Source: a virus
Lineage: Duplodnaviria > Caudoviricetes
Virus record (IMG/VR): IMGVR_UViG_3300043415_000050
Location: 1 to 37,561 of that record
Strand: one strand, 5' to 3'
DNA length: 37,561 bases
Position numbers and translations under genes: made by a program. The stretch's first letter is position 1; the number at the start of each line of letters is the position of its first letter. Shown in pieces: positions 1,167 to 20,880 of this stretch. The notes under the pieces were generated by a model. It was not told the DNA's origin and made no database searches. It saw only the letters and a list, made by a program, of their open reading frames with translations.

Positions 1167-1751
1167 TTATATCATGTCTGATCGTTTTTTGCTAATAGTT
1201 TCTGCAAATGTTGCGCGTCTTTTTTCGTTTGATTCTGGCGTGTGTTTTTTGCCTTTCATGCCTGCATTTGGGTTGGTTGCGTGCCACAATCTCAGTGATT
1301 CGCGCCGCTTTTGTTTAGTTTCTTCCGATTGTGTTTTGCCTTTTCTGGCTTCAGTCATTTTCTGTTTTGTTTCGTCGCTGGCCTTTTTGCCAAGCTGACA
1401 TTCCCTCATCTTTGGCGTTGACAGTCCTTTTTTTGCCGCGCTCAGCTTTAACCGCGTTTCTTCGGTGTGAACCATGCCTGACGCGCCTTCTCCACCATCA
1501 GTCATGTTGACCAACTCTGCGCCGGATTCCCGTAACTGCTTGATGTAGATTTTTTCCAGGTCAAACGCTGCCTGCTCTGACTCGCAGTTGACGATCTGGA
1601 TTCTGATGTTTGCCGCACCGTATTTCTGCACAATGTTTTTGTGCCAGACGGTACGCTTTGAGAATTGATATGCGCGGTTGCCATGCCCTTTCCCGACGTA
1701 AAAAATCGAGCCATCTGGCTTGGCGTGCGTGTAGACGTAAAACTGTTTCAT
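1167..1751 (-). CDS. Free-standing GIY-YIG homing endonuclease with NUMOD3 repeats
   Basis: FYVY...FYVGKG...R, conserved E and N-x-T-x-GGEG, then repeated (H/S)xEETKxKxS NUMOD3-type motifs. Confidence 0.88.
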   Translation of the reverse strand: MKQFYVYTHAKPDGSIFYVGKGHGNRAYQFSKRTVWHKNIVQKYGAANIRIQIVNCESEQAAFDLEKIYIKQLRESGAELVNMTDGGEGASGMVHTEETRLKLSAAKKGLSTPKMRECQLGKKASDETKQKMTEARKGKTQSEETKQKRRESLRLWHATNPNAGMKGKKHTPESNEKRRATFAETISKKRSDMI

Positions 1752-7615: not shown

Positions 7616-7813
7616 TCATGTTCGCTCCACAAGCAGCTTAAACGCATGGTGCCGCGCTCTGGCCAGCTCCATCCCGCCGAGCGTCAGACGGTTCACTGTT
7701 TCCAAGAACTCATCAATCGCCTGATCGGATGGCATCGACATTCTGGCCGCTGCAACGGAATCGTATAACCAGCGTTCATCATGCTCCATTGCTGTCGTTG
7801 ATCCGGCCATCAC
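7616..7813 (-). CDS. Hypothetical protein
   Basis: Coupled to the upstream HNH gene. Start uncertain. Confidence 0.6.
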   Translation of the reverse strand: MMAGSTTAMEHDERWLYDSVAAARMSMPSDQAIDEFLETVNRLTLGGMELARARHHAFKLLVERT

Positions 7814-8289
7814 AGCGCACCTTGTGCTTGACTCAATGAGTCAAAATACTGAGCTGGCCGACCAGGAATGTCAACACGGTATTGTCCGCGGCGTTCCAGA
7901 AAAGTGACGTTTGGCGGCAGTTTGGCTACTGGTTCGTTTTTAACGCGCCTGTTTAGTTTGATTGTTCCGGCTTCCAAGTAATCGCGCGCAAGCGTAAGGT
8001 TATCAATGCAATCGTTGAACTTGTCATCGTCCATGTGCTGGATGTAACCAGGCGGCCATGCTTGATGTTCAATCAGCCAGACAAGGCGGTATCTGGCAAC
8101 ATTGGCGCCAGCGACGTAGATGAGATAACAGTTGTTTGATTTGCTGACACTGCCAGCTTCGGCGCCGACCTTGCGGGGCGTGCCGTGATTGCGGCGTGCG
8201 TGATAGAACCGTCCTGTCTTGCGGTCGTATGTGTAGCGTTCTGTGACGTAGGACAGAATGTCCTGTATGGTCATTGTTGTGTATCTCAT
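7810..8289 (-). CDS. Divergent HNH endonuclease-like protein
   Basis: YDRKTGRF, RLVWLIEHQAWPPGYIQHMDDDKFNDCIDNL, and a degenerate AP2-like tail. Confidence 0.7.
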   Translation of the reverse strand: MRYTTMTIQDILSYVTERYTYDRKTGRFYHARRNHGTPRKVGAEAGSVSKSNNCYLIYVAGANVARYRLVWLIEHQAWPPGYIQHMDDDKFNDCIDNLTLARDYLEAGTIKLNRRVKNEPVAKLPPNVTFLERRGQYRVDIPGRPAQYFDSLSQAQGAL

Positions 8290-8813
8290 GCAGCCACCTG
8301 CTTTCTAGGCACCGGCTGGAACGTGTGCAGGTCTGCTTTGGCAGCAAGGTAAGCAGCGTGGGCGGCTTCTGGTGTTGCGAACAGGCCAAGAGAACGATAT
8401 TTGCCGTTAAGCTTTATTCTTGCTTGCCATTTGTTTTCTTTTTTGCGCCAATTAACGCCAGTAAAGCCTGAAGTATTATCGCTTCTCAATTTGCGTGTTT
8501 GAGCGTTTTCTGCGCTAGTGGCTTCACGCAAATTATCAATGCAATTATTTAAACCGTCGCCATCAATATGGCTTACATGATTTGCAGGCCAAGCGCCGTA
8601 AACATACAGCCAAGCCAGCCTGTTAGCATAATAATTCTTGCCGTTAATGATTATTCTTCTGCATTGACGTTGGCCGTTGTTTTTCACCAAAACCTGACCA
8701 GCAACGCTTCCGGCTTTTAGCCCGCCACGGTCAAAGCGCCAAGTAAACACGCCAGTGGTGGGGTTGTAGTGCAGAAGTTCGCGGAGCTGTTCCGCGGTAA
8801 GAACGTTGTTCAT
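8286..8813 (-). CDS. HNH homing endonuclease with C-terminal AP2 domain
   Basis: LHYNPTTGVFTW, RLAWLYVYGAWP..HIDGDGLNNCIDNLREAT, and NTSGFTGV..KWQARI..LGLFATPEAAHAAY. ATG at 8813 after GAGGGAG. Confidence 0.9.
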   Translation of the reverse strand: MNNVLTAEQLRELLHYNPTTGVFTWRFDRGGLKAGSVAGQVLVKNNGQRQCRRIIINGKNYYANRLAWLYVYGAWPANHVSHIDGDGLNNCIDNLREATSAENAQTRKLRSDNTSGFTGVNWRKKENKWQARIKLNGKYRSLGLFATPEAAHAAYLAAKADLHTFQPVPRKQVAA

Positions 8814-8841
8814 GATTGCTCCCTCAGCCCCTATGAGTGGT

Positions 8842-8894
8842 TGTGGCAATGGAAATAGGGTTTTTCCATGTTCGGCTTCGAATACCTAGCCACA
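8842..8894 (-). ncRNA. Three-way-junction RNA (c4-antisense-like), copy B
   Basis: Closing stem TGTGGC/GCCACA, hairpins GGT-ATTCGAA-GCC and ATGGAAA-AACCCTA-TTTCCAT. Confidence 0.68.
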
Positions 8895-17708: not shown

Positions 17709-17933
17709 ATGATTACGACAGTAACCACCATATTTAACGGCCACCCGCTCACAGTTGAAATTGGCTACGAACCAGGCGAGCCACGCACGTTTGACGATGA
17801 AGGATCAGACGAGGAACTGGAAATCATGCGCGTCTGGTATCAGGGCATTGAAGTCACAGGGTTAATTGGCGAGGACATGCTGGACAAACTGCACGCAAAG
17901 TTGCTGAGCGAAAAGGGGTGCAATGATGACTGA
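17709..17933 (+). CDS. Hypothetical acidic protein
   Basis: ATG at 17709 after GGAG. YEPGEP..DEG..EELEI motif. Confidence 0.7.
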   Translation: MITTVTTIFNGHPLTVEIGYEPGEPRTFDDEGSDEELEIMRVWYQGIEVTGLIGEDMLDKLHAKLLSEKGCNDD

Positions 17934-18474
17934 CCATCTTGTTGACGCCAACAAAAAGGTGGCGCTGTCTGTGGATGATGTGATTAAGATGGCGCGTGAG
18001 GCTGGCATGTTAGTAGTGGATGATCGCCTTATCGCAACAACGGGGCCGTTAATGGCTTTTGCTGCTGCGATTGCCAAGCATGAACGTGAGGAATGCGCAA
18101 AAACGTGTGAAGGCTGGATCGGCCCCAGCTACGAGTTTGACTTGGGCAGGCAGCATTGCGCCAAGAAAATCCGCGAAAGAAGTGATGCGTGGTTGCAGCA
18201 GATTGACGACGAAAACCTGCTGAAAATGGCAGCAAAGGCCGCCGGAATTGAAATTGTTGGCTGGTATAAAGGCTCCCCTATGACTCCGTTGCCGCATCCA
18301 TTTATCAACAACACTCAAGACTGGAACCCGCTTAAGTATGACAAAGACGCACTCGATCTGGCAACGCGGATGGATTTGACCGTCAAGTTTGTTGATAGAG
18401 GCGAGGGCCTGCCCGAATCTTTCCGCAGGGGTATCGTGCTGTATGCAGCAAAAGCGGCAGGTGGCCATGACTGA
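17923..18474 (+). CDS. Hypothetical two-module protein (A+B fusion)
   Basis: The N-half resembles 18467..18703 and the C-half resembles 18909..19184. Confidence 0.75.
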   Translation: MMTDHLVDANKKVALSVDDVIKMAREAGMLVVDDRLIATTGPLMAFAAAIAKHEREECAKTCEGWIGPSYEFDLGRQHCAKKIRERSDAWLQQIDDENLLKMAAKAAGIEIVGWYKGSPMTPLPHPFINNTQDWNPLKYDKDALDLATRMDLTVKFVDRGEGLPESFRRGIVLYAAKAAGGHD

Positions 18475-18703
18475 CGAAGAAATCATCCGCATGGCGCGTG
18501 AAGCTGACAGGGAATGGGATTGCGATAGAAACATGTATGAATGGCTTGAGCATTTTGCCAGACTGGTTGCCGCTCAGGAGCGCGAAGCTTGCGCCAAAAC
18601 ATGCGAATCTATCGCAAGCAATCCCAGTTCACTCTGGAGCGAGTCCGGTTGTTGGGCGCACGCTGCCGAGGCGTGCGCTGCTGAAATCAGGGAGCGGTCA
18701 TGA
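18467..18703 (+). CDS. Hypothetical protein, module A
   Basis: IIRMAREA..FARLVAAQEREACAKTCE..CAAEIRERS. Confidence 0.75.
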   Translation: MTDEEIIRMAREADREWDCDRNMYEWLEHFARLVAAQEREACAKTCESIASNPSSLWSESGCWAHAAEACAAEIRERS

Positions 18704-18912
18704 AACATTGGAAACACGCCCCAGCCTGGGCGAGATACAGGGCAACTGATGGAGACGGGTCTGTCTGGTGGTTTGAGATGCGGCCAGTGGCCGTGCTTTG
18801 TGAGGAAACTACGCACTCTCGCTGGGAAGCGTGGTCAGGCAGGACTGAGCGCGACAGGCGCAGCAAGGGCAATTTTGAGCAGTTTGCTGGGAGTTTGGAG
18901 GCAAGGCCATGA
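18700..18912 (+). CDS. Hypothetical Trp-rich protein, module C
   Basis: W..AP.WA...A.D.DG..WWFE..P...SLEARP. Confidence 0.75.
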   Translation: MKHWKHAPAWARYRATDGDGSVWWFEMRPVAVLCEETTHSRWEAWSGRTERDRRSKGNFEQFAGSLEARP

Positions 18913-19184
18913 GCGATGATGAACTGACTAAACTGGCAGCAGAAGCGTTTGGCATTGATGAATATGAGTCTCAATTTTGGGGATTTGATCCGCTCAATGA
19001 GGATGCCGATGCGTTTAGGCTGGCGGTTAAACTAAAGATTTCAGTTAAGTTTAACAGTAATTTTGTCGGGACTCTTCACGAGGACATTATTGGGTGCGCT
19101 GAGTTTTACTTTACCGATCCTTACGCAGCCACCCGCCGCGCCATTGTCAGGGCTGCTGCTGAGATAGGGAGGGGCATGGAATGA
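18909..19184 (+). CDS. Hypothetical protein, module B
   Basis: LTKLAAEAFG..FDPLNEDADAFRLAVKL..TRRAIVRAAAEIG. Confidence 0.75.
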   Translation: MSDDELTKLAAEAFGIDEYESQFWGFDPLNEDADAFRLAVKLKISVKFNSNFVGTLHEDIIGCAEFYFTDPYAATRRAIVRAAAEIGRGME

Positions 19185-19390
19185 AACCCGACTGGAATGA
19201 CGCGCCAGATTGGGCGCAGTGGTTAGCGATGGATAAAGATGGAACATGGTGGTGGTTCGAGCGAGAGCCGGGAAAAGGCGGTGTTTCATGGGGTGGATGG
19301 GGTCAACTGGATAGTTGCAGGTGTGTAGAAGCCTTTGGGCACCAAATACATGGAAAATTGTGGAGTCAATCATTGGAGCGACGCCCATGA
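19181..19390 (+). CDS. Hypothetical Trp-rich protein, module C paralog
   Basis: DWNDAPDWAQWLAMDKDGTWWWFEREP...SLERRP. Confidence 0.75.
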   Translation: MKPDWNDAPDWAQWLAMDKDGTWWWFEREPGKGGVSWGGWGQLDSCRCVEAFGHQIHGKLWSQSLERRP

Positions 19391-19647
19391 CCGACCGCTA
19401 CCTAGCAGGCACAGCCACGTTACGCACGCCAGCCGAGGAACCGCCACCGGCCAAGACCAAAATACTGTTGCTATCGCCATACGGGATACTCAGCATTGGG
19501 CCTTGGAGCGACTGGTTTGTGGCCTGGGCGCCGCTGCCGAAGATACCGGCTCATATCAAAGAACAAATGAGGATGAAAAGATGCTCTGCCCCATCTGCAA
19601 ACAGTGGACAACAATCAAAGACAGCCGTCAGACCAAGCTTAACATGA
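19387..19647 (+). CDS. Hypothetical protein (DUF551-like W.PLP motif)
   Basis: EEPPP..KILLL..G...VAWAPLPK. ATGA-coupled start at 19387. Confidence 0.65.
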   Translation: MTDRYLAGTATLRTPAEEPPPAKTKILLLSPYGILSIGPWSDWFVAWAPLPKIPAHIKEQMRMKRCSAPSANSGQQSKTAVRPSLT

Positions 19648-19781
19648 CGCGCCGCCGCCACGAGTGCGGGAACGGCCATCGGTTTAACACGCTTGAGATG
19701 ACCGTGCAGTTTTACGCCGAAATTACGGGAATCGACATGGGAAAGCTTGCTGAGATCAAGCATGACGGTGATATAATTTAA
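19581..19781 (+). CDS. NrdR-N-like zinc-ribbon protein (66 aa)
   Basis: MLCPIC...IKDSR...TRRRHECGNGHRFNTLE. ATG at 19581 after GAGG. Confidence 0.8.
   Translation: MLCPICKQWTTIKDSRQTKLNMTRRRHECGNGHRFNTLEMTVQFYAEITGIDMGKLAEIKHDGDII
19769..19777 (+). promoter_or_regulatory. Extended -10 promoter
   Basis: TGaTATAAT, a perfect extended -10, with no credible CDS downstream. Confidence 0.7.
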
Positions 19782-19782
19782 C

Positions 19783-20042
19783 GGCAGGCCATGGCCCACT
19801 GCTGACCGAGGGGAAAGGCCTTTCTGGTGGCGCATCGACCAGTTACCCCGATGCCTGACACGTCCGAACAGGGGGCGGCGTACCGGTAACGGCGCCTGAC
19901 ACAGGTAATCCTGCGAGCCGGTGGAAGGCCGGCATCATTATCCATAGGGATGACGGCTTATATACGGTCAGTCGTCATCCCTGCGGGTAATGTGTATTCA
20001 ATCGACCCCGCAGAGCCTCATGCTTGCCGTGGGGCTTTTTTA
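19783..20042 (+). ncRNA. Unidentified ~255-nt structured RNA
   Basis: Bounded by a promoter and a terminator. Contains an H-type pseudoknot, at least five hairpins and GCCTGACAC twice. Confidence 0.62.
20014..20042 (+). terminator. Intrinsic terminator (rightward)
   Basis: AGCCTCATG-CTTGC-CGTGGGGCT followed by a T tract. Confidence 0.8.
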
Positions 20043-20047
20043 TGGGC

Positions 20048-20075
20048 AAAAAAAACCGCTAGGGGTGCTAGCGGT
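20048..20075 (-). terminator. Intrinsic terminator of the late/lysis transcript
   Basis: ACCGCTAG-CACCC-CTAGCGGT followed by T7 on the minus strand. Confidence 0.85.
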
Positions 20076-20126
20076 CAAGTACGCCACAAAGGCCTGAGAA
20101 CCATATCGATCATTATCTCGGAATGG

Positions 20127-20188
20127 TGGTAGAATAGCAAGGCGGCTAGGGTAGCTCCTGAACCACTGTAAAACCGACAGTGTGCCGC
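20127..20188 (+). ncRNA. Three-way-junction RNA (c4-antisense-like), orphan copy C, with extended -10
   Basis: TGgTAGAAT promoter, GCGGC/GCCGC closing stem, AGGG-TAGC-TCCT hairpin, GAA linker and CACTGT-AAAACCG-ACAGTG hairpin. Confidence 0.68.
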
Positions 20189-20206
20189 GCTTCTGAACGA
20201 TAACGG

Positions 20207-20617
20207 CTATTCTGGCCGCTTCCCGTCAATCAGCTCCTGTATCGACAACCCACCAGTCCATTGCAGGTGAGCCATCTCGCGGAACCGCTTCCAGCGTCCA
20301 GCCCACTCCAGCCCGCACGTTTCGCCGATTTCGCCGCATTTCCGGAACAAATCAAGGTCAATCCAGTCAATCTTGCCGTGCTTCAATGGCGCAAAGTCAA
20401 ACGCTAAGCCGTAGTTATGATATGAATGACCTGGTGGCGCGTTAGTAACCTTCGCGCCTGGTATTGTGCGCCCTTTGGCATACAATGCCGCCTGATCTTC
20501 CATCGAGCGCAGCGTGCTGGTAATAATTACGTCAATGCCTGCCGCTTCACACGCCAGTATGAAAGCCTTGCAGCGTTTGCGTACCTTGGGGTAAAGGTCG
20601 TCGATGGAGCGGCTCAT
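20207..20617 (-). CDS. Endolysin, M15 L-Ala-D-Glu peptidase family
   Basis: TLRS..Q..LYAKGRT, SYHNYGLAFD and EWAGRW..EMAHLQ motifs. Start at ATG 20617. Confidence 0.92.
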   Translation of the reverse strand: MSRSIDDLYPKVRKRCKAFILACEAAGIDVIITSTLRSMEDQAALYAKGRTIPGAKVTNAPPGHSYHNYGLAFDFAPLKHGKIDWIDLDLFRKCGEIGETCGLEWAGRWKRFREMAHLQWTGGLSIQELIDGKRPE

Positions 20618-20880
20618 TCTGTGTACCCGTACGACGCAAACACCAGCCACGCGCCTTTAAACTGGCCGTGGAACGATTCAGACAGTCTTGGCCTATCATC
20701 AAACGGTTTATGAATGAAGCCATCGCATCCAGATTCAGGACTCACAAACACTGGATGACACTGGCAATCGTCAATGCTGTGTTTTTCAGAATCGCACAAT
20801 GGTATGTAATGCGTGGCATCCTGCCCTATAACGTATTCAAGGCGCCACATGTCTTTGTCAGTTATGGCGTTTGCGCTCAC
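20614..20880 (-). CDS. Hypothetical His/Cys-rich protein in the lysis cassette
   Basis: H.IP..D...H....CQCHP....H..FD.R. Coupled at both ends (GTGA and ATGA overlaps). Confidence 0.7.
   Translation of the reverse strand: MSANAITDKDMWRLEYVIGQDATHYIPLCDSEKHSIDDCQCHPVFVSPESGCDGFIHKPFDDRPRLSESFHGQFKGAWLVFASYGYTE

What the first reader, a model, noticed from the sequence alone, without database searches (positions are those of the whole stretch)
19769..20042. Stand-alone ~255-nt structured ncRNA with a pseudoknot, its own promoter and terminator
Seen: a perfect TGnTATAAT, then no credible CDS up to an intrinsic terminator. It contains a compact H-type pseudoknot (CTGGT 19824-28/ACCAG 19838-42; GCATCG 19832-37/CGATGC 19849-54), a GTAA GNRA hairpin (19877-96), CAGG-TAAT-CCTG, a 7-nt T-loop-like hairpin GCCGG-TGGAAGG-CCGGC, a 13-bp stem (19946-58/19970-82) and CTGCGGG/CCCGCAG. 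GCCTGACAC follows structured units twice, 41 nt apart. I cannot assign it to a known family. Inference: a phage RNA processed into modules, for example a decoy or antitoxin mimic (type III ToxI antitoxins are short pseudoknots that some phages mimic), a protein-binding scaffold or a ribozyme.
Basis: partly seen in the sequence, partly recalled or inferred. Interest (0 to 1): 0.8.

Follow-up and report, generated by a model that had tools for sequence, protein, structure and literature searches.

The report
Modular folded RNA of water phages
An uncultured water phage carries a stretch whose base-paired fold is kept by matching mutations in a sister phage and whose middle part differs between relatives; it matches no catalogued RNA family, is likely made as its own 260-base non-coding RNA, and likely works as a decoy or scaffold that binds a host factor.

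Summary
The element is real. Window 19783-20041 lies between two converging operons of a podovirus-like phage, flanked by the window's only perfect extended -10 box and an intrinsic terminator.

Against the one other full-length allele found (two contigs), 35 of 256 aligned bases differ. These include 6 two-sided and 10 wobble-keeping changes in a fitted structure. The core diverges 10% against 29% at silent sites.

New here:
- a long-range helix (19855-59 with 19967-71) with a two-sided change;
- a variable domain after the T-loop hairpin: absent in the window, 113 nt closed by a second T-loop hairpin in the other allele, different again in an RNA-library contig.

The H-type pseudoknot is present but invariant, so covariation cannot prove it. 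The 9-mer repeat is chance-level and not conserved, which removes the ToxI-like processing idea.

No Rfam family matches; ToxI, CRISPR-repeat mimic and known ribozyme membership fail. Transcription is not shown.

Best reading: a stand-alone accessory RNA acting as a decoy or scaffold (0.45); a functional structured RNA at all, about 0.9. The scan holds no sequence look-alike, but it noted comparable modular phage RNAs on other DNA.

The parts
19581..19781 (+). Last gene of the rightward (replication) operon, an NrdR-like zinc-ribbon protein; its last codons overlap the -10 box
   Evidence: Pfam PF22811 E 3.8e-9; sequence
19750..19777 (+). Predicted sigma-70 promoter: weak -35, TG at 19769-70, TATAAT at 19772-77 (TATACT in the other allele)
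   Evidence: 19776 change also in run X24; activity inferred
19783..20041 (+). Predicted RNA, about 259 nt (short form; about 371 nt in the L126/L155 allele)
   Evidence: ends inferred from promoter and terminator
19783..19803 (+). P1, 5' hairpin with a variable interior; two-sided change at 19785/19801
19808..19823 (+). P2 hairpin with a GAAAG(G/U) loop; three two-sided changes
   Evidence: same variants in 2-4 contigs of run X3 and in X24
19824..19854 (+). H-type pseudoknot (5 bp + 6 bp); stems invariant, so no covariation
19855..19859 (+). 5' strand of long-range helix P3, pairing with 19967-71 in the loop of P8 (second pseudoknot); A-U to G-C at 19858/19968; 6 bp in the other allele
   Evidence: one event, chosen with both alleles in view; rival partners 19802-08 and 19896-900 mismatch in the other allele
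19861..19877 (+). P4 hairpin; three wobble-keeping changes
19877..19896 (+). P5, GUAA tetraloop hairpin; two-sided change at 19885/19890, two wobble-keeping changes
   Evidence: 19885 and 19890 both changed in all 4 runs laid
19902..19913 (+). P6 hairpin, invariant
19917..19933 (+). P7, T-loop-type hairpin (U...A pentaloop plus two extruded bases); duplicated in the long allele; the variable domain sits right after 19933
   Evidence: T-loop definition from PMC4810234 passages
19936..19992 (+). P8, 19-bp interrupted hairpin (19936-55 with 19973-92); three wobble-keeping changes; its loop carries the 3' strand of P3
19993..20013 (+). Nearly invariant linker; CCCGCAG could pair with 19981-87 only in an alternative fold
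20014..20042 (+). Predicted intrinsic terminator; stem kept, loop variable
20054..20076 (-). Predicted terminator of the leftward (lysis/structural) operon; would stop antisense read-through short of the RNA
20207..20650 (-). Endolysin (M15/VanY peptidase), last gene of the leftward operon

Best explanation
The stretch is a conserved base-paired element with a variable middle that is likely transcribed as a stand-alone RNA of about 260 bases and likely acts in trans as a compact decoy or scaffold that binds a host factor.

Shown: position, motifs, sequence conservation, pair-keeping changes on the + strand, and three architectures at 19933.

Inferred: host sigma-70 polymerase starts at about 19783 and stops at about 20041. 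The chain folds into P1, P2, an H-type pseudoknot, four short hairpins and a long hairpin whose loop reaches back to 19855-59. The GUAA and T-loop hairpins make tertiary contacts. Recombination between two copies of the T-loop hairpin removes or swaps the middle domain, the window being the form without it. The unit behaves as an accessory cassette at the early/late junction.

Guessed: the partner is a host protein or RNA involved in defence or gene expression.
For: - Core 19824-20020 differs at 20 of 197 sites against 171 of 582 fourfold-degenerate sites in 6 shared genes, P 1e-8.
- Fitted structure: 6 two-sided and 10 wobble-keeping changes. RNAalifold alone finds 5 two-sided pairs among 79.
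- All 10 one-sided changes involve a G-U pair on the + strand, and the + strand folds better (z -2.67 against -1.88). The long allele has z -3.91.
- Promoter and both terminators are kept in the other allele.
- The same RNA sits beside a different downstream gene in L155 (Rha).
- The short form is also in run X5: a 222-nt contig across 19933, 12 differences, no gap.
- No + strand gene follows the terminator in the window or in L126.
Against: - Only two distinct full-length alleles; each pair change is one event, and the structure was fitted with both in view.
- Window-only predictions give weak tests: MFE 2 two-sided and 9 broken, P 0.09 and 0.06; centroid 1 and 6, P 0.38 and 0.014.
- The 3' half has no two-sided change within itself, and the pseudoknot is invariant.
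- Two RNA libraries hold the region, but at depths like the neighbouring genes (X24 41 against 35-53; X4 6 against 3-4). One contig runs in from the upstream gene, so neither transcription nor a separate transcript is shown.
- No partner is identified and the host is unknown.
- The 113-nt domain on its own does not fold better than shuffles (z -0.70).
Confidence: 0.45

Rival explanations
1. A cis-acting 3' element of the early operon: it protects or processes the mRNA end, or switches the terminator to control read-through into an accessory gene such as rha.
For: It begins 2 bases after the last early stop codon. An X24 contig is continuous from the upstream gene. In the window an alternative pairing 20006-11/20029-34 competes with the terminator (p 0.33, 0.5 kcal/mol apart). 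L155 has rha downstream on the same strand.
Against: The competing pairing is lost in the other allele (p 0.00), which is the one with rha downstream in L155. rha has its own promoter-like site and leader. A conserved extended -10 sits exactly in front of P1. 260-370 nt with two pseudoknots is far more than an end cap needs (inference).
Confidence: 0.15
2. A ribozyme of an undescribed class, cutting itself or another RNA, with the invariant stretches 19824-57 and 19896-918 as its core.
For: Long invariant stretches, pseudoknots and T-loops are typical of catalytic cores (established knowledge). A 17-nt piece of the twister-sister model matches the second T-loop hairpin (E 8.5).
Against: No ribozyme family reaches threshold. 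The hammerhead core motif is absent from both alleles. The pseudoknot has no room for the nested helix of HDV-like ribozymes (sequence; family features recalled).
Confidence: 0.12
3. An RNA that self-assembles into an RNA-only oligomer, a small analogue of GOLLD and ROOL.
For: Conserved 5' and 3' parts joined by a variable middle, as described for GOLLD and ROOL (10.1101/2024.12.08.627333). P3 could form between molecules.
Against: It is a third of GOLLD's size. No Rfam similarity, no tRNA genes in the window, and no self-complementary loop shared by both alleles.
Confidence: 0.1
4. A specific mimic of a known defence RNA: a ToxI-type antitoxin or a type I-C CRISPR repeat (Racr).
For: A 31-nt H-type pseudoknot is ToxI-sized (PMC5086642). 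19971-20003 is the best-matching place for 3 of the 4 repeat-pattern sequences tried and shares 23 of 32 letters, counted by eye, with one published solitary repeat.
Against: No tandem repeats, which ToxI and pseudo-ToxI need. No AAAU or AAAA site in the window form. Repeat-match scores are reached by 55-69 of 500 shuffles for the commonest repeat. No CRISPR repeat family matches. The published repeat was picked by a motif taken from this RNA. The segment is locked in P8.
Confidence: 0.06
5. Not an RNA gene: a DNA-level site, a small-protein gene, or chance hairpins preserved by recent recombination.
For: L155 and L126 are identical over the RNA, which fits recent exchange. An ATG at 19950 is in frame for about 24 codons in both alleles.
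Against: That frame runs through the terminator, shifts, and changes 6 residues in its first 24 codons (read by eye). The 113-nt insertion breaks the minus-strand frame. G-U-keeping changes are strand-specific. Three adjacent pairs of P2 change on both sides.
Confidence: 0.07

Closest known systems
GOLLD and ROOL RNAs (large ornate RNAs of phages and prophages; 10.1101/2024.12.08.627333)
   Same: Phage-encoded, protein-free, many hairpins with pseudoknots, conserved ends joined by a variable middle, function unknown.
   Different: 259-371 nt against more than 800 nt for many GOLLD; no Rfam match; no tRNA island; oligomer formation untested.
Type III antitoxin ToxI and phage pseudo-ToxI (PMC5086642, PMC3475682)
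   Same: Contains a compact H-type pseudoknot of similar length.
   Different: Single copy inside a larger fold, no 34-36-nt tandem repeats, no A-rich toxin sites in the window form, no toxin gene nearby.
RNA anti-CRISPRs (Racr) and viral sgRNAs (PMC10651486; 10.64898/2026.06.01.729453)
   Same: Promoter-driven phage non-coding RNAs that act as decoys; this is the kind of action proposed here.
   Different: Similarity to I-C repeats is at chance level; no tracrRNA or repeat family matches; much longer than the ~90-nt vsgRNAs.
T-loop-bearing RNAs: RNase P, T-box, twister-sister
   Same: U...A pentaloop hairpins; the long allele has two.
   Different: Only the motif is shared. No family match, and a recalled likeness to RNase P's conserved regions is broken by the other allele.

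Membership tests
Any Rfam 15 family | Score at the family's gathering threshold | tested here: not met
   0 hits in the window; best E 0.048, cow-rumen-1 tail, 20 against 53 bits; long allele best hits are terminator shapes
ToxI / type III antitoxin | Tandem 34-36-nt repeats, about 2.8-5.5 copies | tested here: not met
   Only a 9-mer twice, chance-level, first copy changed; feature
ToxI / type III antitoxin | H-type pseudoknot | tested here: inconclusive
   Stems present but invariant
ToxI / type III antitoxin | A-rich toxin cleavage sites flanking each unit | tested here: not met
   No AAAU or AAAA in the window form; one AAAA only in the inserted domain of L126
ToxI / type III antitoxin | Neutralises a ToxN-like RNase | not testable with these tools
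   needs an assay
Racr (type I-C) | Close match to a CRISPR repeat | tested here: not met
   Score 18, reached by 55-82 of 500 shuffles for the two array repeats; no CRISPR family
GOLLD / ROOL | Match to the family covariance model | tested here: not met
GOLLD / ROOL | Conserved ends with a variable linker | tested here: met
   feature
GOLLD / ROOL | Often beside tRNA genes | tested here: not met
   0 tRNAs in the window, L126, L155 and L220
GOLLD / ROOL | RNA-only cage | not testable with these tools
   needs cryo-EM or mass photometry
Known self-cleaving ribozymes | Family model or catalytic core motif | tested here: not met
tRNA / tmRNA | ARAGORN call | tested here: not met
RNase P RNA | P4 helix between the 5' and 3' conserved regions (recalled) | tested here: not met
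   The candidate strands change non-complementarily in the other allele; no Rfam hit

The most novel reading that the evidence does not exclude
A phage RNA chassis with plug-in payloads: a fixed, doubly pseudoknotted core presents an exchangeable domain between two T-loop hairpins, swapped by recombination at the repeats. The paired T-loops clamp tRNA elbows or a defence protein, giving a new RNA-only class of counter-defence or host-takeover factor.
Probability: 0.12. Interest if true: 0.85.

Novelty: new variant of a known kind. Interest (0 to 1): 0.52.

Why it matters
Phage RNAs with ornate folds and no known job (GOLLD, ROOL) are an open question, and RNA decoys are an emerging form of counter-defence. 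This one is small, has natural long and short forms that serve as a ready-made domain deletion, and sits in a slot where accessory genes are exchanged. That makes it cheap to synthesise, probe and test. Its weight is limited by a narrow known range and by the lack of a host, a transcript or a partner.

Tried and rejected
Pattern scans for more homologs:
- 17-mer of P6: 1 of 4, the known contig.
- T-loop hairpin in metagenomes: 1 of 88, L155.
- Pseudoknot 19-mer in prokaryote genomes: 0 of 21.

Covariance-model and BLAST searches:
- Model R1 over 10 related phage records: only the known one.
- Models R1 and R2 over 49 of the 80 terminase relatives plus the known record as control: only the control. 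The 31 shortest records were not searched.
- Ten long relatives read nearly whole: only weak hits, best E 0.006 and 0.046. The L482 hit lies within long ORFs; no comparable promoter-to-terminator folded unit or T-loop hairpin was found. Models from two alleles are insensitive, so this does not show absence.
- Weak hit L143/L159 is the linker of an SSB gene, by my reading of the sequence.
- BLAST of phage isolates and plasmids: nothing meaningful.

Other checks:
- No antisense target in the phage's own genome above chance (best 12 nt, E 0.46).
- The 12-nt likeness to L489 is inside a protein gene.
- The Cas5d look-up rang nowhere, controls included, and shows nothing.
- One junk protein alignment (22303, 28% identity) was dropped from the silent-site count.
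- Read-level variation of the 3' half was not obtained beyond, so P3 and P8 rest on two alleles.
- Summed contig depth peaks over the RNA in run X3 (about 100 against 17-71 in the nearby bins), but it is no measure of copy number or expression.

Full report
Setting. The window is a complete-looking 37,561-base virus record. PHROGs annotates a rightward block (Sak4-like annealing protein, Cas4-like exonuclease, helicase, small genes) and leftward blocks with terminase, portal, head and lysis genes. The nearest isolates are distant: terminase 55% to Pseudomonas phages LKA5 and H66, helicase 57% to Idiomarinaceae phage 1N2-2. The host is unknown. The finding fills the gap between the last rightward gene (NrdR-like zinc ribbon, 19581-19781) and the endolysin on the other strand (20650-20207).

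Observation. Every listed motif is at its stated place. The region folds better than shuffles (z -2.67; minus strand -1.88). The H-type pseudoknot geometry arises in 10 of 2000 shuffles and 11 times in both strands of the window, this one included. A 9-mer repeat arises in 562 of 5000 shuffles. The promoter is the only perfect TGnTATAAT of 5 near-consensus sites (all). No Rfam family reaches threshold, and ARAGORN finds nothing.

Homologs. The endolysin search gave 5 loci, one from a close phage (L121, also fetched as L126 and L220). It carries the element with a 113-nt insertion after the T-loop hairpin, ending in a second copy of that hairpin. A metagenome contig, L155 (1 of 88 pattern hits), has the identical RNA. 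Its zinc-ribbon gene differs at 48 sites, and downstream it has a rha gene where L126 has the lysin. A chimeric contig is not excluded. All other searches were empty (see Tried and rejected).

Run-level variants. Four public runs laid at 80% likeness show further variants. A drinking-water run (X5) has a 222-nt contig across 19933 without an insertion and with 12 differences, so the short form is not a one-off assembly error. An RNA library labelled marine (X24) continues at 19933 into the L121-type domain. A freshwater RNA library (X4) continues into a third, unrelated sequence of at least 138 letters; whether that contig rejoins the 3' half is unknown.

Selection. Between the window and L126, 35 of 256 aligned bases differ. 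The core 19824-20020 differs at 20 of 197 sites against 171 of 582 fourfold-degenerate sites in six shared genes (P 1e-8; a seventh, misaligned gene dropped). Beyond the two terminators the spacer is rearranged.

Structure. Two-sided changes fall at 19785/19801 (P1), 19808-10/19821-23 (P2, three pairs), 19885/19890 (P5) and 19858/19968. Wobble-keeping changes fall at 19861, 19863, 19876 (P4), 19883, 19895 (P5), 19919 (P7), 19943, 19945, 19953 (P8) and 20021 (terminator). RNAalifold recovers five of the two-sided pairs unprompted. The pair 19858/19968 defines a long-range helix between 19855-59 and the loop of P8. Two other possible partners for the same loop mismatch in L126.

Limits of the structural evidence. 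The model was fitted with both alleles in view, and each change is one event. The H-type pseudoknot and P6 are invariant. Invariant alternatives exist: 19850-55 with 19931-36, and CUGCGGG/CCCGCAG, which costs 5-6 kcal/mol against P8.

Coding. The frame from ATG 19950 is open for about 24 codons in both alleles but changes six of them, crosses the terminator and shifts (read by eye). It has no PHROG match. The insertion is not a multiple of three.

Expression. Not shown. The two RNA libraries hold the region only as contigs, at depths like neighbouring genes, and DNA may be present in them.

Mechanism. I commit to a stand-alone RNA made by host polymerase that acts in trans as a decoy or scaffold (0.45). 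Promoter, terminator and the lack of a downstream same-strand gene in two of three contexts argue for a separate transcript. Its place in a slot where a rha cassette also comes and goes argues for an accessory, host-facing role (inference). The duplicated T-loop hairpin offers a route for loss or exchange of the middle domain: the window's single copy matches the first copy in its loop and the second copy after it. T-loops bind an inserted base, and pairs of them recognise the tRNA elbow in three RNA classes (PMC4810234, passages); whether these do so is untested. Rivals are a cis 3' element (0.15), a new ribozyme (0.12), an RNA-only oligomer (0.10), a ToxI or CRISPR-repeat mimic (0.06) and a non-RNA explanation (0.07).

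Comparison with what is known. ToxI antitoxins are 34-36-nt repeats cut at A-rich sites (PMC5086642, passages), and phage pseudo-ToxI needs repeat expansion (PMC3475682, passages). Neither feature is met. A likeness of 19971-20003 to type I-C repeats was tested with repeats from 3 of 201 genomes, one of them a non-array chance match, and is at chance level (PMC10651486, passages and supplement look-ups). vsgRNAs are about 90 nt and tracrRNA-like (10.64898/2026.06.01.729453, first of nine parts). GOLLD and ROOL share the plan of conserved ends and a variable linker but not size or sequence (10.1101/2024.12.08.627333, passages and section 5). It therefore resembles the orphan ornate phage RNAs in plan and is a member of no family tested.

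In print. Nine literature searches (listings and abstract starts only, apart from the papers named above) showed no description of this RNA. Motif look-ups in the supplements of the 10,006 candidate viral RNAs (PMC10690425, abstract and outline) found nothing in six files, but files 1, 2 and 4 were not searched and may hold the alignments. The scan's own index has no sequence look-alike. It lists other modular or pseudoknotted phage RNAs on other DNA, which I did not check.

Verdict. A real, selected, structured element, very likely a non-coding RNA gene (about 0.9), of an uncatalogued family with a narrow known range and natural domain-swap variants. Function is inferred only. Interest 0.52.

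Noticed in passing
window 20124-20194 (+); L155 1002-1095: A promoter-like site and a 53-nt structured-looking leader that precede a rha gene in L155 are kept in the window without the gene, and are missing in L126. It recalls c4-type antisense leaders (recalled); Rfam gave no such match.
   Followed up: partly
L155 364-525: The zinc-ribbon gene body differs from L126 at 48 sites while both flanks are identical: a gene-sized recombination patch or a chimeric contig.
   Followed up: partly
window 17923-19390: Small paralogous genes: two match phrog_5086 and two match phrog_21375/phrog_1972. The stretch 19122-19182 attracts many unrelated contigs in three runs.
   Followed up: no
window 1167-1751, 7810-8289, 8286-8849: One homing endonuclease and two adjacent HNH endonuclease genes; none lies beside the RNA.
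   Followed up: no
L126 2355-2450: The inserted domain holds further short hairpins with T-loop-like and GUAA loops and a closing stem, by eye; alone it folds no better than shuffles.
   Followed up: partly
L082, L114, L015, L063, L047 and similar: Several viral contigs carry long arrays of an 18-nt unit containing the same 9-mer; unrelated to this RNA.
   Followed up: no
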